The notes under the pieces are model-generated. The model saw only the letters and a program-made list of their open reading frames with translations, was not told the origin of the DNA and did not search any database. Both the position numbers and the translations under genes were made by a program. This document shows positions 7,934 through 62,092 of a stretch of 64,000 bases of DNA, one piece after another. Each line of letters opens with the position of its first letter. Positions within the stretch are counted from its first letter, which is position 1. Source of the stretch: Candidatus Kapaibacterium sp. (GTDB lineage Bacteria > Bacteroidota > Ignavibacteria > Kapaibacteriales > Kapaibacteriaceae); assembly GCA_022842685.1 (NCBI GenBank), contig JALHPC010000006.1:26053-90052 (forward strand), given 5' to 3'.

Positions 7934-8050
7934 CTAAATTCTTTTTCATGGTGCGTTCATTCACGACGTAGCGTCATTCCATGCCCCATGAAACCAACGC
8001 CCCTTTCCCGATGTTTGCAGGCAGTTCATTACAAGAAACTAGGAGTGAGT

Positions 8051-9550
8051 GTGAAGGTTCTCGTCATCGGCAGTGGCTTTGGTGGCTTGAGTGCAGCAAT
8101 ACGACTGCGTGCAAAGGGCTACGAGGTTACGATTGTAGAGAAGCGCGACAAGCCCGGCGGACGTGCCTACGTGTATGAGCAGGATGGCTTTGTATTCGAC
8201 GGCGGGCCAACGATCATTACTGCGCCATGGCTTATCGACGAGCTCTTCGAGCTGGGCGGAAAGCGAACCGACGATTACGTGAAGCTGGTGCGCCTAGATC
8301 CGTACTACAACGTTCGCTTCGAAGACGGCACGGTGTTTCGCTACAACGGCAATGCGCAAGACGTGATGAACGAGATTCGGCGGTTTAACCCGGCCGATGA
8401 ACGTGGGTATACAACGTTCTTTGGCAAAACGGCGAACATCTTCAAGGCCGGCTTCGACTTGATCGACCAGCCATTCACCAAGCTTACCGACATGGTAGGT
8501 GTGCTGCCTGACCTTATTCGTCTACGTTCGGATAGGTCGGTAGCGGGATTCGTGAACCGCCACATCCGCGATGAACGCCTGCGCCAAGTGTTCTCGTTTC
8601 ACCCTCTGCTGGTGGGCGGCAATCCGTTTCGTACAACGAGCATCTACGCCCTTATCCACAAACTCGAGCAGGAATGGGGCGTCTGGTTTGCCATGGGCGG
8701 TACGGGCGCGCTCGTAAACGCCTTGGTGAAGCTGTTTACCGATATGGGCGGCACTATTCGCTACAATGCCGAGGTGCAACGCATTGACGTTGTGAACGAC
8801 GGCGCAGTACCAAGAACAACCGGGGCTAGGCTGGCCGACGGCTCTACCGTTCCGGCCGACATTGTGGTGTGTAACGGCGACGTTGCCCAGGCCTATATGA
8901 CGCTTGTGCCACCGCAGTTCCGCAAGCGCAACACCAACGCGCGCTACGAGAAGATGTCGTACTCGATGTCGCTCTTCGTGATTTACTTTGGCACCAACAA
9001 GCAATACCCCGACATGGCTCATCATGAGATCTTGATGGGCCCACGCTACCGCGACCTTGTTGAAGACATTTTTACGCGGAAGCATCTTGCAGAGGACTTT
9101 TCGCTGTACCTGCATCGGCCAACAGCCACCGACCCCTCGTTGGCGCCGCCGGGCTGCGACTCGTGGTACGTGCTGTCGCCGGTGCCACACCTTGGTGGCA
9201 CCACCGATTGGAAGACCGAGGCCCCACGCTACCGCGACCGCATTATGCAGTACCTTGAAGAACGCTACATGCCCAACCTTCGGCAGCACATCGTAAGCGA
9301 AACGTATATCGATCCGCTGCACTTTCAGGGAACGCTCAACAGCTACCTTGGCAGTGCGTTTAGCGTGGAACCAACGCTTACGCAAAGCGCATGGTTTAGG
9401 CCGCACAACGTGAGCGAGGACATTCGCGGACTCTACTTTGTAGGTGCCGGCACGCACCCCGGTGCGGGCTTACCCGGCGTAATGAGCTCGGGCAAAATTG
9501 CCGCACGATGCATTGCGCAAGACTATGCTATATCCGACCCCGTGGCATAG
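8051..9550 (+). CDS. crtI: Phytoene desaturase (CrtI family)
   Basis: VKVLVIGSGFGGLSAAIRLRAKGYEVTIVEKRDKPGGRAYVY Rossmann motif. C-terminal FVGAGTHPGAGLPGVMSSGKIAARCI is typical of CrtI. GTG start just after AGGAG. The upstream ORF-track extension was rejected. Confidence 0.85.
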   Translation: MKVLVIGSGFGGLSAAIRLRAKGYEVTIVEKRDKPGGRAYVYEQDGFVFDGGPTIITAPWLIDELFELGGKRTDDYVKLVRLDPYYNVRFEDGTVFRYNGNAQDVMNEIRRFNPADERGYTTFFGKTANIFKAGFDLIDQPFTKLTDMVGVLPDLIRLRSDRSVAGFVNRHIRDERLRQVFSFHPLLVGGNPFRTTSIYALIHKLEQEWGVWFAMGGTGALVNALVKLFTDMGGTIRYNAEVQRIDVVNDGAVPRTTGARLADGSTVPADIVVCNGDVAQAYMTLVPPQFRKRNTNARYEKMSYSMSLFVIYFGTNKQYPDMAHHEILMGPRYRDLVEDIFTRKHLAEDFSLYLHRPTATDPSLAPPGCDSWYVLSPVPHLGGTTDWKTEAPRYRDRIMQYLEERYMPNLRQHIVSETYIDPLHFQGTLNSYLGSAFSVEPTLTQSAWFRPHNVSEDIRGLYFVGAGTHPGAGLPGVMSSGKIAARCIAQDYAISDPVA

Positions 9551-18041: not shown

Positions 18042-19103
18042 CTAGGAAGCGGACGAGTCCGACGGGGCCGACGAGTCCGACGAGTCCGACGAGTCCGACG
18101 GGGCCGACGGGGCCGACGGAGCCGACGGAGCCGTCTGTTCCGACGGGGCAAACGACGCAGCCATAGCAGCCAAGCTTAGACCCTGGCGATTCTCGACAAT
18201 CGAGCAATATGCAACGCCAACGCTAACGTACGTTATCGTGGACAGTAACTGTGCGCCTGTTAAGGAAAGCATCGATGTAACCACGCGTACAATTCCGAAA
18301 ATGCCAAGTGACTCATCGTTCGACTCGCGAACCATGGTATGAACCAGGCCAACAATGGAGTCTGGAATCGCAAATAAATACGAACATATGCCCACAAGAA
18401 GCGAGATAACGATGTAGTACCCCAACATCCACCACCAGTGTCCACGAATGGTGCTGAAGGCAATCTTGACCGATTCAAGAAACCCTGTCTCGACGAACAC
18501 CGATACAGGAAGCGTAAGCAATAGCGCAACGCTTGCGTAAACTGTGAGAGGCACTAACACAATGAAGCCAAGAAAGACAATACCAATGGCACTGAACGTG
18601 TCCAGCGATGACGCAAGGGCAACGATAGGCACTGCAACCACAGCAGTGGCCAAAATGAAGGCACCTACGAGAGACAGAATGACTGCGAACACCCTGCTGG
18701 TATGCAGTGCCTTCGCTTCGGCTAACTGCTCAACACTGGGCACCGCACCAGCGTCACGATAGGCTCGGAGCCACGTCATCACAATGGCAGCATGCCAGCC
18801 GGCAACCACGAACAGCAGTAGGTAACCGAGAGCTATTATGACGCCCGACAACGCCATCTCGTCGACTGCCACCTCACGTAGGGCTTGTCCGATGGCCTCG
18901 ATGTCGCCCGATAAAAACGCCCCGAAGCCAGTAATCGTGCCATAGGCAGTAAGGCCAGCTGCTACAAGGAGCCACGGCAATACATGTTTGATGACATAGA
19001 GAAATAGCGACGAATAGTGGTGGCGAACGATGTCGATGGTGGCCGACAACGTCTCGCTCCACGAGCGTGGTTTATTAAGCGATATGTAGTTAGGATCAGA
19101 CAT
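18042..19103 (-). CDS. Polytopic membrane protein with Ser/Asp/Ala-Pro low-complexity C-terminal tail
   Basis: Multiple TM helices. C-terminal APSAPSAPSAPSDSSDSSDSSAPSDSSAS encoded by GACGAGTCC/GACGGGGCC tandem 9-mers (18040-18130). Confidence 0.4.
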   Translation of the reverse strand: MSDPNYISLNKPRSWSETLSATIDIVRHHYSSLFLYVIKHVLPWLLVAAGLTAYGTITGFGAFLSGDIEAIGQALREVAVDEMALSGVIIALGYLLLFVVAGWHAAIVMTWLRAYRDAGAVPSVEQLAEAKALHTSRVFAVILSLVGAFILATAVVAVPIVALASSLDTFSAIGIVFLGFIVLVPLTVYASVALLLTLPVSVFVETGFLESVKIAFSTIRGHWWWMLGYYIVISLLVGICSYLFAIPDSIVGLVHTMVRESNDESLGIFGIVRVVTSMLSLTGAQLLSTITYVSVGVAYCSIVENRQGLSLAAMAASFAPSEQTAPSAPSAPSAPSDSSDSSDSSAPSDSSAS

Positions 19104-30458: not shown

Positions 30459-30512
30459 TCACGTTTGCACGGGACGTTGGCACGGGACATTGGCACGGGA
30501 CGTTGGCACGGG
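30459..30512. repeat. 13-bp tandem repeat x3.5 (TGGCACGGGAC[G/A]T)
   Basis: GCACGGGACGTTG GCACGGGACATTG GCACGGGACGTTG GCACGGGCAGG read directly. Intergenic, upstream of the lipoprotein gene. Confidence 0.85.
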
Positions 30513-46314: not shown

Positions 46315-47118
46315 ATGGCATCACTGTATCCACAGCGCGTGGTGTGCCTTACCGAGGAGACCACCGAAACACTCTATGCCATCCATGCCGACCACGTAAT
46401 CGTGGGCATTTCGGGCTTTACGATGCGCCCAGCGCAGGCCCGCAAGGAAAAGCCCAAGGTGTCGACCTATCTCGATGCCCGGTTCGACGACATCATGGCA
46501 CTACAGCCAGACGTGGTGTTTGCGTGGAGCGACCTGCAAGCAGATCTAAGTGCCGAGCTCATTCGGCGAGGTATCGACGTAGTGTGTTTTAACCACCGCA
46601 GCATCGACGGCATCCTACAGATGATTGTCCGCCTGGGCGCTTACGTTGGCTACGGCCCAGCCGCCGAAATGTATGCCGGCACGTTACGCCAGCGCGTCGA
46701 TGCCGCCGTTGAGCGTGGCGCAGAGCGCACATCGAAGCCCCTTGTCTATTTTGAGGAATGGTACGACCCGCTCATTACCGGTATTACATGGGTAAGCGAG
46801 ATAATCGAGATTTGTGGCGGCATTGACGTGTTTGTAGAAAACCGCCGATTTCCGAATGCTAAGGAGCGGATTTTGGCCGACCCGTTAGAGCCTGTACGGA
46901 GGAATCCGGACATCATGGTGGCCTCGTGGTGCGGCAAGATGTTCAAGCCAGACAGGGTGCGCGCACGAGAGGGCTGGGAGCACTTTCGGCCAGCTCTTAC
47001 GCAACAGATGCACGAGATTCACTCGTCGATCATATTGCAGCCGGGCCCTGCGGCACTTACCGATGGCATAGATGCTATGATGTCGATCTTCGATGCGTGG
47101 GAGGCAGCGCGCGTATGA
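46315..47118 (+). CDS. Periplasmic-binding-protein fold protein (BtuF/TroA-like class III) lacking a signal peptide
   Basis: RVVCLTEETTETLYAIHADHVIVGISGF...DVVFAWSDL pattern of Fe/B12 binding proteins. No N-terminal signal. 4-nt ATGA overlap with the downstream TPK gene. Confidence 0.5.
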   Translation: MASLYPQRVVCLTEETTETLYAIHADHVIVGISGFTMRPAQARKEKPKVSTYLDARFDDIMALQPDVVFAWSDLQADLSAELIRRGIDVVCFNHRSIDGILQMIVRLGAYVGYGPAAEMYAGTLRQRVDAAVERGAERTSKPLVYFEEWYDPLITGITWVSEIIEICGGIDVFVENRRFPNAKERILADPLEPVRRNPDIMVASWCGKMFKPDRVRAREGWEHFRPALTQQMHEIHSSIILQPGPAALTDGIDAMMSIFDAWEAARV

Positions 47119-47771
47119 CAACGCTTGAGCGCCAGGTGTCTTACGACGCCATAATCTGCTTGAACGGCGACCTACCCCCTGCCGAACGATTTGATGCGTG
47201 GGCGAGCGTGCCACTTGTGGCGGCCGACGGTGCGGCAAACGCGCTTATGCGCATGGGCATCGTTCCGGAGTATGTTGTGGGAGATCTAGACAGCATCGCG
47301 GACGAGACTTTGGAACTCCTTGCCGACGTATCGACGGTGATTCCTATACCCGAGCAAGACGTGAACGATTTTGAGAAGGCGCTTACTGTGGCACAGCACC
47401 AACTCTTCGAGCGCCTGCTTGTTGTTGGTATGCATGGCGGTGATTTAGAGCACACGCTAAACAACTGGAGCGTGCTCATGCGCTTTGGCCGCAGCTTAAG
47501 CGTACATGTGTTAGACCGCCAGCGCCTTGCAGTGCCGGTATATGGTTCAGTTCGATTTGCTACTACGCAAAGCGAAATCATCTCGCTAGTGCCACAGCCC
47601 AGCGTACGCCTTACCACGAGTGGTTTACAGTGGCCGCTTACCAACGAAGTGCTGGAAATGGGCCAGCGCGAGGGCGCCCGCAACCAGGCCACAACAACCG
47701 AGGTAACGCTCGACCTCCACGAAGGAGCCGTTCTCGTAGTTTTCGACGCCGAGTGCCCCCCTGCTGCTTAG
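47115..47771 (+). CDS. Thiamine pyrophosphokinase
   Basis: VVGDLDSI motif and about 218 aa. C-terminal thiamin-binding-like region. Confidence 0.6.
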   Translation: MTTLERQVSYDAIICLNGDLPPAERFDAWASVPLVAADGAANALMRMGIVPEYVVGDLDSIADETLELLADVSTVIPIPEQDVNDFEKALTVAQHQLFERLLVVGMHGGDLEHTLNNWSVLMRFGRSLSVHVLDRQRLAVPVYGSVRFATTQSEIISLVPQPSVRLTTSGLQWPLTNEVLEMGQREGARNQATTTEVTLDLHEGAVLVVFDAECPPAA

Positions 47772-47775
47772 TGCA

Positions 47776-48080
47776 CAGCACGTCCCTGTGCCGAAGGCAC
47801 GTCCCTGTGCGAAGCACGTCCCTGTGCGAAGCACGTCCCTGTGCGAAGCACGTCCCTGTGCGAAGCACGTAACTGTGCGAAGCACGTAACTGTGCGAAGC
47901 ACGTAACTGTGCGAAGCACGTCCCTGTGCGAAGCACGTCACTGTGCGAAGCACGTAACTGTGCGTAGCACGTCACTGTGCGAAGCACGTAACTGTGCGAA
48001 GCACGTAACTGTGCCGAAGGCACGTCCCTGTGCCGAAGGCACGTAACTGTGCGCAGCACGTTCCTATGCGAAGCATGTCG
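47776..48080. repeat. Tandem array of about 18 copies of a 17-bp unit GCACGT(CC/AA/CA)CTGTGCGAA with occasional 18-19-bp variants
   Basis: Read directly. The unit contains the inverted repeat GCAC-N6-GTGC. Intergenic between the TPK and esterase genes. The period is not a multiple of 3, and the ORFs over it are artefacts. Confidence 0.9.
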
Positions 48081-48124
48081 TATGTTTGGCAGTCGTCGTA
48101 CCATCTGATTTTTAGACCCTCGCT

Positions 48125-48856
48125 ATGCGCAGAGAACTTTCTTCGTGGTGGAGTCCCCACCTTGACCGCTCGATGGAAATCGTGTCGTACGGACACTTTG
48201 GCCAGGCAATTCTGCTGTTTCCCAGCGCAGCTGCCGACTACCTTGAATACGAGCGCTTTCACCTGATTGAGGCGATTGCCCCCTACATCAATGCGGGCAG
48301 GGTAAAGGTGTATTCGATTAACAGTATCAACAGCGAGAGTTGGCTGAACGACAAGCTACATGGTCGGCAGAAGATTGTTCGCCACATGCAGTACAACAAC
48401 TACATCGTGGATGAAGTCGTGCCGTTTATCCATCGAGACTGCGATGGCCTTACGTCGATCATCACTGCGGGCGTGTCGCTTGGAGCCTTCCATGCGGCGA
48501 ACACACTGTTCCGCCGGCCTGACGTGTTTGACGGCGTGATTGCCATGAGTGGCATCTACGACCTGAAGTCGTACAGCAAGGGATACTTCGACGAAGACTG
48601 CTACTTTAATTCGCCCATGGACTACATGGCGAATATGAACGACCCATACTGGCTGCGCCATTTGCAATCCAAGCATCACATTATGTTTTTGTCGGGTCGA
48701 GGCAATTACGAAGACCCCGATGCCTCGGTAGCCATGGGCAACATCCTTACGGCCAAGGGTATTCCGCACGAGGTGGACCTATGGGGTTGGGAGTGGACGC
48801 ACGACTGGCCCACGTGGCGCGCCATGTTGCCGAACGTGATTGCACGTAGGTTCTAA
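48125..48856 (+). CDS. Esterase-family hydrolase (esterase D/enterochelin-esterase-like fold)
   Basis: SAGVSLGAF nucleophile-elbow-like GxSxG. Overall pattern resembles the Pfam Esterase family. Confidence 0.6.
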   Translation: MRRELSSWWSPHLDRSMEIVSYGHFGQAILLFPSAAADYLEYERFHLIEAIAPYINAGRVKVYSINSINSESWLNDKLHGRQKIVRHMQYNNYIVDEVVPFIHRDCDGLTSIITAGVSLGAFHAANTLFRRPDVFDGVIAMSGIYDLKSYSKGYFDEDCYFNSPMDYMANMNDPYWLRHLQSKHHIMFLSGRGNYEDPDASVAMGNILTAKGIPHEVDLWGWEWTHDWPTWRAMLPNVIARRF

Positions 48857-51608: not shown

Positions 51609-51667
51609 AGAACCTCCTGTGTTATGTGGATAAAGCGGCTGATGCGAATTTACGATACACTTTTGTG

Positions 51668-51964
51668 TTAGGCAACACTGTCGTGAACCGCCCCCGTCAC
51701 AACCTGCCACGGCTGTATGGTATAGCGCTCTACCACTCCATTCTGCACGTACGGATCAAGCTCCACAAATCGCTCTATTTCGTGTAAGGGGCACCGAAAG
51801 ACTAACACGGCAGAGTCTGGCGGGTCCCCTACGGCACCTCCCAACAATAAGAACCCACGCTTGGCAAATTCATCGGTCAACGCCAAATGTTCCGGACGAT
51901 ACGGCGTGCGCTTTGTAACGTAGTCATCAACAACGTGATAGCGCAAAATGTAGTACGTGCTCAT
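51668..51964 (-). CDS. YciI-like protein
   Basis: 98 aa. MSTYYILRYHVVDDYVTKRTPYRPEHL pattern of the YciI/Dabb family. Confidence 0.55.
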   Translation of the reverse strand: MSTYYILRYHVVDDYVTKRTPYRPEHLALTDEFAKRGFLLLGGAVGDPPDSAVLVFRCPLHEIERFVELDPYVQNGVVERYTIQPWQVVTGAVHDSVA

Positions 51965-60196: not shown

Positions 60197-62092
60197 TTAC
60201 CTGATGGTGGGGTTGTGGTTAAAGAAGCCCATGGGCATAAGTGAGAAGCCGGCATGTTCTACGGGCATGATGGGCCAGTCTTCGGGGCGAGTAACGTGGG
60301 TGACGCCAAAGGTGTACCATACCACAACGTCGCGATTGCGGATGGATTCGTTATCGGCTACGTAGCGTGGCAGGCCTTCGCCGGATGACGATTGGTTGGG
60401 ATAAGGGCCTGCGGCGTAGAGTTCGTTGTCGTTATGGCGCGTAACCCATAGTGAATGGTCGATGAAGGCAGCTCGCTTTCGCGGGGCTGCCTCGGGCTTA
60501 AGGAATGGCTGGGCATTGATTCCTGGAACAAGGCAATAGGCCGTAGGCATGCCAAAGGAGTTTGTTGTGGAGGCATGTTGAATGTTCCACCTACGTGCAG
60601 CCGACGGCTTTACAGAGGAGCGTGCTTCGTGTTCGAAGCGAAACTCCCAATCGTCGATCATCATTGCATTCAGTGAGCGGTTTTCCTGACCGGCAGGGGG
60701 CGACCAGATGTCGAGCTCGTGCACTGAATTTTCGGGGCCGTCGACGTCGAGGTCGAGACGCACACTAAAGAAGTGCTGATGGAAGGGCGCCAAGAGGCGC
60801 GGCTGAATCATGTGCGACGTCTTGCGGCTGTCGAGGTTTTGCGACCAGACTGTGTCGCCTGTTCCCTTTGCGAGCATAACTCCGGTGAGGGCAACATCAA
60901 ACTTGATGGTACCATCTTGGGCGAAGATCCACGAAATCATGTAGTCGTAGTTGCCTACGGTGGCGCAATGCTGGATGGTGAATTCGGTGCCGGACTTTGA
61001 GGAGACGACGTCGGTTTCGAGGTTCACATGGCGCCACAAAAGACCCGACGGTTTTTCGTACCACGCTACAGCGTCTGGGATGTTGATGGGGTTGCCAGCT
61101 CTGTCAACAATCACGATGGGGGCAGTCGAGGCATTTGCCGGAACATCGAGGCCCCGTGTTAGCGGACGAGACGAAAGTCCCACGCCGTATTCACCGGCGT
61201 CGAACGCAGTGCGCCACGTCCATGCCGCCGAGGTGTCACCATACGGCACAAACATCTCGGAGAGCGCCAACCGGTGTGCGACGGGCCTGCGGCGTCCGTT
61301 ATCGTTCCAAGCAACGTCATACAGCACCAGGCCGTCTTTAGGTTGTAGCACCCATCGAAATGACCAGTTATTCCACGAAACAAGCTGCTGGTCGCCCTTG
61401 GTGCGAAGTTGTGGCTTTACCTTTGGACGTTTGGATGCTTTGGGAAGGACAGCCGGATCGGCAACAGGCACGATGAACTTGTCGTGAACCTCCATGGCCT
61501 GTCGCGTCGACGTGTTCACAAGCATGTGAAGGCCTTCGATAGGGCGGTCGTAGCGCATTTCGCCATTTGATCGAACAAAGAAGATGCACCGAACGAGGCG
61601 TCCGGGGAATGACGATCGCGGAACACCGGAGGCCCATGGTTCTACGACGACCGAGTCGATGGGAATGCCTCGACGTTCGAGTGCTCTGCGAAAGAGCACG
61701 TTACGGTGCACGATCGCCTGGATAGTATCAAACTCGAACGGGCTAATTAGGGGCTGCACGTCGTCGAGACGTTTGAACTCCGTGACCGTTCGACGTGCCG
61801 GGTCGACGCTGATTTCGTACGTAATGCGTTGTTGCGGGTCGTAGCATACGCATTGCACTTCTTGGCGGATGGAATCTGCGCTTCGGATGTAGACCGCCTT
61901 ATCGGGCTCTCGAACGCCAACACTCTGGAACTGAAGGGTGGCTGGTGTACGCGAATCGGAACGGATGACGGATACAGCTGTCGCCACGTCGACTACCGTT
62001 GGCTGCGCCAACGGATGCCTAGGCGTTTGCGTGCGCGGCTGCGCAGTAGCTACAACGGTTGCAACGAGAAAGAAAAGCCAGATGGACGTCAT
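60197..62092 (-). CDS. Copper amine oxidase (TPQ-dependent), secreted
   Basis: TPQ consensus TVGNYDY. His ligands HQHFF (HxH) and a downstream His. Signal MTSIWLFFLVATVVATAQ. Confidence 0.8.
   Translation of the reverse strand: MTSIWLFFLVATVVATAQPRTQTPRHPLAQPTVVDVATAVSVIRSDSRTPATLQFQSVGVREPDKAVYIRSADSIRQEVQCVCYDPQQRITYEISVDPARRTVTEFKRLDDVQPLISPFEFDTIQAIVHRNVLFRRALERRGIPIDSVVVEPWASGVPRSSFPGRLVRCIFFVRSNGEMRYDRPIEGLHMLVNTSTRQAMEVHDKFIVPVADPAVLPKASKRPKVKPQLRTKGDQQLVSWNNWSFRWVLQPKDGLVLYDVAWNDNGRRRPVAHRLALSEMFVPYGDTSAAWTWRTAFDAGEYGVGLSSRPLTRGLDVPANASTAPIVIVDRAGNPINIPDAVAWYEKPSGLLWRHVNLETDVVSSKSGTEFTIQHCATVGNYDYMISWIFAQDGTIKFDVALTGVMLAKGTGDTVWSQNLDSRKTSHMIQPRLLAPFHQHFFSVRLDLDVDGPENSVHELDIWSPPAGQENRSLNAMMIDDWEFRFEHEARSSVKPSAARRWNIQHASTTNSFGMPTAYCLVPGINAQPFLKPEAAPRKRAAFIDHSLWVTRHNDNELYAAGPYPNQSSSGEGLPRYVADNESIRNRDVVVWYTFGVTHVTRPEDWPIMPVEHAGFSLMPMGFFNHNPTIR

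What the first reader, a model, noticed from the sequence alone, without database searches (positions are those of the whole stretch)
47776..48080. About 300 bp minisatellite: roughly 18 tandem copies of a 17-bp palindromic unit in an intergenic region
The unit GCACGTCCCTGTGCGAA carries a GCAC-N6-GTGC inverted repeat, the shape of a dimeric DNA-binding-protein site. The units vary at two positions (CC/AA/CA) and a few 18-19-bp units occur, the pattern of a slippage-prone VNTR. Such long simple arrays are rare in compact high-GC bacterial genomes. It sits between a thiamine pyrophosphokinase gene and an esterase gene and could act as a phase-variable spacer/promoter, a protein-titration array, or a structured RNA repeat. 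It is not CRISPR (no unique spacers) and not coding (period 17).
Basis: seen in the sequence. Interest (0 to 1): 0.6.

Follow-up and report, generated by a model that had tools for sequence, protein, structure and literature searches.

The report
Hypervariable mini-hairpin repeat array, IS target
The 300-bp array is real and non-coding: it is a fast-changing run of tiny DNA hairpins from a lineage-specific, REP-like repeat family, and a mobile element that chooses its site with a guide RNA inserts into it in sister strains, which makes it a tidy example of a known kind of genomic feature, not a new one.

Summary
The array is confirmed at window 47778-48080. It has 17 units plus a decayed 18th; the period is 17 bp, with three 19-bp units.

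The conserved element is the other register, a 4-6-bp stem closing a GNA triloop (GTGC-GAA-GCAC), followed by a fixed 6-nt linker GTNNCT.

The same architecture, with eight different self-complementary stems, occurs at about ten other intergenic loci in metagenomes of this Kapabacteria-like lineage, usually abutting stop codons. One sister species has an array at the same locus and a second has none.

Samples with an identical esterase protein carry at least five different versions of the array's 3' part, and short-read contigs break inside it.

In sister strains a 1446-bp IS110-family element with IS1111-type layout sits inside this very array. It sits in at least six other arrays too, always at GCACGTAA^CT. 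Its downstream non-coding RNA carries a variable block complementary to that site. The window's array holds seven such sites and no IS.

Best reading: a REP-like hairpin VNTR that doubles as an RNA-guided IS landing site. Any host function is unproven. This is a new member of a known kind.

The parts
47115..47771 (+). Thiamine pyrophosphokinase gene. Its TAG stop codon (47769-47771) lies 6 nt before the array.
   Evidence: ORF. Pfam TPK_catalytic 2.6e-22 and TPK_B1_binding 4.6e-07.
47778..48072 (+). Tandem array of 17 units. Each unit is a hairpin (stem, GNA loop, stem') plus the linker GTNNCT. Fourteen units are 17 bp and three are 19 bp.
   Evidence: Hairpins: GTGC-GAA-GCAC x11, GTGC-GTA-GCAC x1, GTGC-GCA-GCAC x1, GTGCC-GAA-GGCAC x3, ATGC-GAA-GCAT x1.
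47788..47800 (+). Five-bp-stem hairpin GTGCC-GAA-GGCAC (19-bp unit). The same hairpin occurs at 48011-48023 and 48030-48042.
   Evidence: The paired C/G insertion lengthens the GAA-loop stem. DNA fold energy is -4.5 kcal/mol against -2.7 for the 4-bp version.
47865..48052 (+). Seven exact copies of GCACGTAA^CTGTGC, the insertion site used by the IS110-family element in sister strains. They start at 47865, 47882, 47899, 47950, 47984, 48001 and 48039.
   Evidence: 7 matches, 0 expected by chance. Junctions in L001, L002 and L006-L008 at this same locus, and in L093-L102 at other loci.
48073..48089 (+). Decayed last unit GCATGTCGTATGTTTGG. It contains TATGTTTG (48081-48088), a box that is invariant in three species and may be a Bacteroidetes-type -7 promoter element for the esterase gene.
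   Evidence: Alignment A4: CGTATGTTTGG is invariant in the window, in L113 and in L115 (which has no array). The promoter role is inferred from the TAnnTTTG consensus known for Bacteroidetes; it was not tested.
48125..48856 (+). Esterase-family gene immediately downstream of the array.
   Evidence: ORF; Pfam PF00756 5.2e-07. The identical protein occurs on 12 contigs from several samples.
47625..48104 (-). A 159-aa minus-strand ORF that stays open through the array. Judged not to be a gene.
   Evidence: The unit has no stop codon in any minus-strand frame. The mix of 17- and 19-bp units and the unit gain and loss between strains shift the frame.

Best explanation
The array is a locally amplified cluster of a lineage-specific, REP-like repeat. 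Each unit is a minimal hairpin: a 4-6-bp stem closing a GNA triloop. On the + strand this is the d(GCGNAGC) mini-hairpin motif. Each hairpin is followed by a fixed 6-nt linker, GTNNCT.

Units of this design are scattered through intergenic DNA of this Kapabacteria-like lineage, typically right after stop codons.

Inferred, not shown: because the units are short, identical and self-pairing, the array gains and loses units quickly through slipped-strand mispairing or unequal recombination. This would make it a hypervariable VNTR.

Shown by junctions and by comparing three related elements (activity itself is inferred): the linker variant GTAACT together with the preceding GCAC arm is the natural target of a 1446-bp IS110-family element of IS1111-type layout. 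Its downstream non-coding RNA, of the bridge/seekRNA type, has a loop block complementary to GCACGTAAC. The element inserts at the CT dinucleotide.

The window's array is therefore an unoccupied landing site with seven copies of the target.

Weakly supported inference: any benefit to the host is probably of the kind proposed for REP elements, that is, 3'-end hairpins on the upstream mRNA or insulation between the TPK and esterase genes.
For: The array is real and non-random.

Family architecture: 91 hairpins with 8 stem types, all loops GNA (GAA 60, GCA 28, GTA 3), linker GTNNCT, at the window locus and in L009-L012 and L093-L102. A relaxed search gave 45 distinct units in which 95.6% of stem cells pair and 61 cells are changed on both sides; 0 of 500 shuffles reached this, and slid-register controls gave 13-59% pairing.

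Only GNA loops form the very stable DNA mini-hairpin, with Tm 70-76 C (PMC13037366).

Arrays abut stop codons in the window, L009, L011, L012 and L001.

At the same locus, one sister species (TPK 81% identical) has arrays with different stems and another (77%) has none.

There are at least five alleles of the array's 3' part among contigs with an identical esterase protein, and contigs break inside the array.

The IS sits in this same array in L001, L002 and L006-L008, and in at least six other arrays. Its right flank is always AGTTACGTGC and an AG/CT core is duplicated.

The non-coding right ends of three related ISs share a scaffold. Two blocks in it differ and match each element's own flanks (alignments A1 and A2).

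Background on IS110/IS1111 elements, guide RNAs and REP targeting comes from PMC12288879.
Against: Only one locus of the family lies in the 64-kb window, so genome-wide copy number in this strain is unknown.

A scan of GTDB species representatives for two consecutive canonical units found nothing.

Hairpin detection required paired stems, so the covariation statistic is partly circular.

Nearest-neighbour energies do not favour the GNA register over the N6 register (-2.7 against -2.4 kcal/mol).

Guide matches are individually weak when wobble pairs are allowed: a 9-of-10 match somewhere in the RNA occurs by chance about 20% of the time. The third IS does not show the right-flank match as its best hit.

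No transcription, structure-probing or transposition data exist. No host function is demonstrated.
Confidence: 0.75

Rival explanations
1. The array is a set of duplex-DNA binding sites (operators or a titration array) for a dimeric regulator that recognises GCAC-N6-GTGC.
For: The inverted repeat is present in every unit of this homogeneous array. The array lies directly upstream of the conserved TATGTTTG box of the esterase gene.
Against: In mixed arrays the pairing across the linker holds in only 7 of 33 junctions. The stem sequence itself is not conserved: there are 8 types, with compensating changes. A sister species keeps the esterase-upstream box with no array at all. Arrays of the family sit next to unrelated genes, mostly at 3' ends.
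Confidence: 0.07
2. The units are true REPs that a RAYT (REP-associated tyrosine transposase) spreads and amplifies acting on single-stranded hairpins. In this view the array is a product of RAYT activity and not of replication slippage.
For: The units are hairpin-based, extragenic and dispersed, with conserved short flanks (CT before and GT after each hairpin). The GNA bias on one strand suggests a single-stranded DNA substrate. L113 has an inverted array next to a forward array.
Against: No RAYT gene could be looked for, because only 64 kb of the genome is available. Units are in direct tandem with a fixed linker, not in inverted pairs. Long runs of identical units are what slippage or unequal crossing-over would produce.
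Confidence: 0.2
3. The array works at the RNA level, either as a structured 3' UTR that stabilises or terminates the TPK transcript, or as a repeat-derived small RNA.
For: The array begins 6 nt after the TPK stop codon. The RNA fold is -143 kcal/mol, z = -2.5. Other arrays also abut stop codons.
Against: Orientation relative to the abutting gene is not fixed. It is the GNA sense after TPK but the UNC sense after the convergent genes in L009, L011 and L012. There is no Rfam match. No terminator-like site lies in the array. The individual 4-bp stems are weak.
Confidence: 0.25
4. The array is an assembly artefact, or it is a coding repeat read on the minus strand.
For: Short-read assemblies cannot span the array. 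A 159-aa minus-strand ORF is open through it.
Against: Eight independent contigs from different samples carry up to six units with the same flanks. The period is 17 or 19 bp, unit numbers differ between strains, and the ORF runs antisense to the end of the TPK gene.
Confidence: 0.03

Closest known systems
REP/BIME elements of E. coli and Pseudomonas putida, with the IS110-family elements that target them (IS621; ISPpu9, ISPpu10)
   Same: Both are short extragenic palindromes that can form stem-loops. Both are species-specific and clustered in intergenic DNA at gene 3' ends. Both are used as specific insertion sites by IS110/IS1111-family elements that recombine at a conserved AG/CT dinucleotide under RNA guidance (PMC12288879; junctions here).
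   Different: The units here are much shorter: an 11-15-nt hairpin plus a 6-nt linker, against about 35 bp. They are arranged as long direct tandem arrays of up to 17 units, not as singles or inverted pairs. The loop is restricted to GNA. Abundance per genome and any RAYT partner are unknown.
IS1111-group elements with a downstream seekRNA/bridge RNA (for example IS4321/IS5075, ISEc11)
   Same: The transposase has DEDD_Tnp_IS110 and Transposase_20 domains. The non-coding RNA region lies downstream of the transposase gene and there are subterminal inverted repeats. The element is site-specific with a 2-nt core. Variable loop blocks match its flanks.
   Different: This is an uncharacterised element from an uncultured Kapabacteria-like lineage, and its target is a unit of a tandem repeat. 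The donor-binding loop could not be assigned here, and activity is untested.
d(GCGNAGC) 'mini-hairpin' DNA (Hirao and colleagues)
   Same: Fourteen of the 17 hairpins in the window contain GC-GNA-GC and three contain CC-GAA-GG. All loops across the family are GNA.
   Different: The known natural examples are single hairpins at phage or plasmid priming sites and promoters, not tandem chromosomal arrays. Whether these hairpins form in vivo is untested.
Bacterial intergenic VNTRs such as mycobacterial MIRUs (named from my own knowledge, not looked up here)
   Same: Both are head-to-tail intergenic repeats whose copy number differs between closely related strains.
   Different: MIRU units are 40-100 bp, are not minimal hairpins, and are not known to be targets of RNA-guided ISs.

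Membership tests
REP / BIME-type repetitive extragenic palindromes | A short palindrome able to form a stem-loop, kept by compensating changes | tested here: met
   Eight stem types, all self-complementary across the GNA loop. In the relaxed set 95.6% of cells pair and 61 cells are changed on both sides.
REP / BIME-type repetitive extragenic palindromes | Extragenic location, typically at gene 3' ends | tested here: met
   In the window the array starts 6 nt after the TPK stop codon. In L009, L011, L012 and L001 arrays abut the stop codons of convergent genes.
REP / BIME-type repetitive extragenic palindromes | Many dispersed copies per genome | tested here: inconclusive
   About ten distinct loci were found in metagenomes of the lineage. 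There is only one locus in this 64-kb window, and the whole genome is not available.
REP / BIME-type repetitive extragenic palindromes | A cognate RAYT transposase and a conserved cleavage tetranucleotide | not testable with these tools
The conserved CT and GT flanks were noted, but no RAYT search was possible.
REP / BIME-type repetitive extragenic palindromes | Organisation as inverted pairs or alternating orientation (REPIN/BIME) | tested here: not met
   All units in the window array are in direct orientation. Only L113 has an inverted array next to a forward one.
VNTR / minisatellite | Head-to-tail repeats whose unit number or order differs between close relatives | tested here: met
   TRF gives 17.5 copies. 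At least five different 3' parts of the array occur among contigs with a 100% identical esterase protein. Full lengths are not measurable from short-read contigs.
Natural target site of an IS110/IS1111-family (bridge/seekRNA-guided) element | Repeated insertions at one sequence, with a duplicated 2-nt core | tested here: met
   At least seven distinct junction contexts all read ...CAG|IS|AGTTACGTGC..., that is GCACGTAA^CT on the window + strand. These include this same locus in L001 and L002.
Natural target site of an IS110/IS1111-family (bridge/seekRNA-guided) element | The element's non-coding RNA carries loop segments complementary to the target | tested here: met
   For IS_A, block 1 (GCAUGUAAC) pairs with GTTACGTGC at 8 Watson-Crick pairs plus 1 wobble. 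Blocks 1 and 2 differ between IS_A and IS_B/IS_C in line with their different flanks. IS_C's right-flank match is weak, and chance matches are common when wobble is allowed.
Natural target site of an IS110/IS1111-family (bridge/seekRNA-guided) element | Demonstrated RNA-dependent recombination | not testable with these tools
   This needs a transposition or recombination assay.
CRISPR array | Repeats separated by unique spacers of similar length | tested here: not met
   Only 2 variable nucleotides per 17-bp unit.
Operator / iteron array for a sequence-specific dimeric protein | Conserved half-site sequence at fixed spacing | tested here: not met
   Half-site (stem) sequences vary with compensating changes. 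The N6 palindrome is lost in 26 of 33 junctions between different stems.

The most novel reading that the evidence does not exclude
The arrays could be more than passive junk. They might act as multi-copy 'safe-harbour' sinks that draw an RNA-guided IS away from genes. The two variable bases next to the CT core (AA against CC, CA or TC) would then reflect an arms race: only AA units match the IS guide, and the other variants are escape forms. The arrays could also serve as portable homology for gain and loss of gene blocks, such as the 3.5-kb two-gene insert bracketed by units in L001.
Probability: 0.12. Interest if true: 0.6.

Novelty: new member of a known kind. Interest (0 to 1): 0.35.

Why it matters
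The finding gives a concrete natural example of an IS1111-type, RNA-guided element whose programmed target is one unit of a tandem repeat. A single locus therefore offers several identical landing sites next to non-matching variants that differ by one or two bases beside the core. That makes it a ready-made natural specificity panel for bridge/seekRNA recombinases.

It also documents a REP-like repeat family in the Kapabacteria/Ignavibacteria group; a full-text search found no paper linking REP elements to this group. The family is built on the GNA mini-hairpin motif.

On the practical side, the array explains why short-read assemblies of this lineage break at this position. For genome biology in general it is an expected kind of feature.

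Tried and rejected
- **Rfam and tRNA scans:** Rfam on the window (gathering threshold) and on the L001 insert (E <= 1) gave no match. There are no tRNA or tmRNA genes.
- **Promoter and terminator scan:** The sigma-70 scan found no promoter-like site, and neither terminator-like site lies in the array. This scan does not cover Bacteroidetes-type promoters.
- **Genome and protein look-ups:** A genome-contig scan for two consecutive canonical units gave 0 hits. The miaB neighbourhoods of 80 relatives, the closest 62-67% identical (Candidatus Kapaibacterium and Ignavibacteriota MAGs), have no such arrays. Exact-protein look-ups failed for the window's TPK, for the periplasmic binding protein gene upstream of TPK, and for P0121.
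- **Fold energies:** DNA nearest-neighbour folding does not separate the two hairpin registers. The choice between them rests on comparison across loci.
- **GNA hairpins elsewhere in the window:** The long-stem ones checked (61996-62014 and 2857-2873) lie inside long ORFs and do not have the linker signature, so they were judged coincidental.
- **L001 insert proteins:** The 875-aa and 184-aa proteins have no Pfam, NCBIfam or PADLOC hits.
- **IS relatives:** P0005 turned out to be the same element type and target as IS_B, so it is not an independent data point. IS_C's right-flank guide match is not its best hit. The donor-binding loop could not be assigned convincingly.
- **GC skew:** It is too noisy across the window to say which strand is the lagging-strand template.
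- **Readings rejected:** The CRISPR, coding and duplex protein-site readings were rejected for the reasons given under the rival explanations.

Full report
**Observation.** The array is in the sequence as described. TRF gives window 47777-48079 with period 17, 17.5 copies, 90% matches and score 412, far above any other repeat in the 64 kb. Splitting at GCACGT gives 17 units at 47778-48072 and a decayed 18th. Fourteen units are 17 bp and three are 19 bp. The unit pattern with up to three mismatches hits 17 times in the array and once elsewhere, against 1.0 expected. The flanks are a thiamine pyrophosphokinase gene at 47115-47771, whose stop codon is 6 nt before the array, and an esterase-family gene starting at 48125. 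Rfam and ARAGORN find nothing.

**Which palindrome matters.** It can equally pair forwards across GAA. The 19-bp units settle the choice within the window. They read GTGCC-GAA-GGCAC, so an extra C and an extra G lie on either side of the GAA loop. This lengthens that stem to 5 bp and adds nothing to the N6 pairing.

Related loci settle it more generally. At the window locus and at about ten others, every period consists of a 4-6-bp stem, a GNA loop, the complementary stem and a 6-nt linker GTNNCT. The stems seen are GTGC, GTGCC, ATGC, ATGCC, GTTGGC, GGCC, ACGGC and CGTGC. The loops are GAA (60), GCA (28) and GTA (3).

It gave 45 distinct units in which 95.6% of stem cells pair and 61 cells are changed on both sides. 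None of 500 shuffles reached this, and slid registers gave 13-59% pairing. The selection required near-pairing, so this statistic is partly circular. The stronger point is that arrays are contiguous, with no skipped periods.

Pairing across the linker survives in only 7 of 33 junctions between hairpins with different stems. Nearest-neighbour energies do not discriminate between the registers. GC-GNA-GC is, however, the d(GCGNAGC) mini-hairpin motif. Only GNA loops form it, with Tm 70-76 C (PMC13037366).

**A dispersed, lineage-specific family.** A metagenome scan found same-family arrays at four other loci (L009-L012). They include a 17-unit array and mixed arrays with several stem types. Two of the source assemblies are copper-mine cyanobacterial-mat metagenomes (PMC7744130).

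The closest MiaB relatives among species representatives are 62-67% identical and are Candidatus Kapaibacterium or Ignavibacteriota MAGs. The host is therefore a Kapabacteria-like organism with no close representative, and none of those relatives has such arrays beside miaB.

Arrays abut stop codons in the window, L009, L011, L012 and L001, in either orientation relative to the abutting gene. That argues for a DNA-level feature over a fixed RNA element.

At the same TPK-esterase spacer the picture varies between species. A sister species with 81% identical TPK (L113) has an inverted array plus a forward array with other stems (GGGCC, GTGGC). That forward array ends in the same ATGC-GCA-GCAT GTCGTATGTTTGG. 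A species at 77% identity (L115) has a 135-nt spacer with no array but keeps CGTATGTTTGG. Contigs carrying another close TPK variant show yet another hairpin mix downstream.

**Hypervariability.** The esterase protein is 100% identical on 12 contigs from different samples. Most of these contigs start inside the array, and their 3' array parts differ in unit number and order, giving at least five versions. This supports the VNTR reading. Absolute copy numbers, including the window's 17, cannot be verified without reads.

**The IS.** In L001, which is 96-98.7% identical to the window, and in L002 and L006-L008, a 1446-bp element sits inside this same array. It encodes a 365-aa DEDD_Tnp_IS110 + Transposase_20 protein. 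The junctions read GCACGTAACT|tctatgtaaa...catacggt|CTGTGCGAA, so a CT core is present on both sides.

Contigs carrying the 99%-identical transposase show the element in at least six further array contexts. The pattern is always [variable hairpin]CAG|IS|AGTTACGTGCT in transposase orientation. On the window + strand this means insertion in the GTAA^CT linker after a GCAC arm, and never in CC-type linkers.

The element has a 76-nt left end, a 272-nt non-coding right end and subterminal inverted repeats. This is the IS1111-group layout, in which the guide RNA lies downstream of the transposase gene (PMC12288879).

Two relatives were compared. IS_B has a 62% identical transposase (L103-L112, L123) and IS_C a 56% identical one (L124). 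Both insert into different sequences. IS_B targets another REP-like hairpin, CCCCCTCTCT...AGAGAG^GGGGG.

Their right ends align on a conserved scaffold in which two blocks differ (alignments A1 and A2).
- **Block 1.** It is CGCATGTAACA in IS_A and (T/A)GTCGCCCCTT in IS_B and IS_C. In IS_A it is the reverse complement of GTTACGTGC, with one G-U pair. In IS_B it pairs with AGGGG(G/C).
- **Block 2.** It is CTCTCCAGA in IS_A, TCGAGAGA in IS_B and TCCGTAGA in IS_C. It repeats the left flank: CCAG for IS_A, CTCGAGAG for IS_B and CCCGAAG for IS_C.

In an unbiased slide of each right flank along its own right end, the best match falls in block 1 for IS_A and IS_B but not for IS_C. Matches of 9 of 10 with wobble allowed arise by chance about 20% of the time. 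The weight therefore rests on the positional coincidence and the covariation. I read this as good comparative support, not proof, that the array's AA units are the programmed target of a bridge/seekRNA-type guide.

The window's array contains seven exact GCACGTAACTGTGC sites. No copy of the IS is present in the 64 kb.

**How it most likely works.** Three things are shown: the hairpin-plus-linker architecture, the dispersal of the family, the variability between strains, and the site-specific IS insertion. Three things are inferred.
- Stable, identical mini-hairpins promote slippage and unequal exchange, giving rapid gain and loss of units.
- The IS recombinase uses its right-end RNA to pair with GCACGTAAC and CCAG and exchanges strands at the CT core.
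- Any host role resembles those proposed for REP elements, namely mRNA 3'-end protection or insulation between genes.

A variable promoter spacer is unlikely. The terminal unit and the conserved TATGTTTG box stay fixed while the variation lies upstream of them.

**Comparison and verdict.** The nearest known systems are REP/BIME clusters and the IS110-family elements that target them (IS621, ISPpu9; PMC12288879). The differences are the very short unit, the long direct tandem arrangement, the GNA-only loop, and unknown abundance and RAYT status. A full-text search found no paper linking REP elements to Ignavibacteria or Kapabacteria. I file the array as a new member of a known kind. It is of moderate interest, mainly as a natural multi-site target panel for an RNA-guided IS.

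Noticed in passing
L001 943-4256 (between the TPK and esterase genes in a sister strain): A 3.5-kb block with two minus-strand ORFs of 875 aa and 184 aa. Neither has any Pfam, NCBIfam or PADLOC hit. The block is bracketed by array units and is absent from the window. It is either an insertion into the array or was deleted by recombination between units.
   Followed up: partly
IS ends in L001 4477-5922; also L104 and L124: Joining the right end, the AG core and the left end gives cATTTGgaaatttacatagaAGaccgTATGTTAAacg. This reads TTTG-N20-TAtgTTaa, a Bacteroidetes-style -33/-7 promoter that would form only on the excised circle. The end sequences are conserved in all three related ISs. The same CGTATGTT 8-mer occurs in the conserved box upstream of the esterase gene (window 48079-48086).
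   Followed up: partly
L010 (minus orientation, about 7990-8230); L104 1330-1500; L123: A second REP-like family, the long GC-rich hairpin CCCCCCTCTC-loop-GAGAGGGGGG. It is the insertion target of the related IS_B in Ignavibacteria. In L010 it sits directly next to GNA-hairpin arrays, as a module that is repeated twice.
   Followed up: partly
window 30461-30512: Another small tandem repeat, ACGTTGGCACGGG x4 with period 13. It is followed by a GC-rich hairpin (GGCAGGC...GCCTGCC) and a T-run that looks like a terminator.
   Followed up: no
window 18052-18149: A 9/18-bp tandem repeat, CCGACGGGG x10 (TRF scores 98 and 117). The period is a multiple of three, so it may encode a peptide repeat.
   Followed up: no
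window 51635-51693 against L001 9512-10910: A gene presence/absence difference between strains. L001 carries a 443-aa ORF with no family hit, where the window has only 58 bp. No hairpin units lie at the junctions.
   Followed up: partly
L105 1270-1330; L108 2830-2900: Ignavibacteria intergenic regions next to IS_B carry other short tandem repeats, such as GAATAGYG runs and GTCATACC/GTCATATT runs. Repeat-rich spacers may be common in this group.
   Followed up: no
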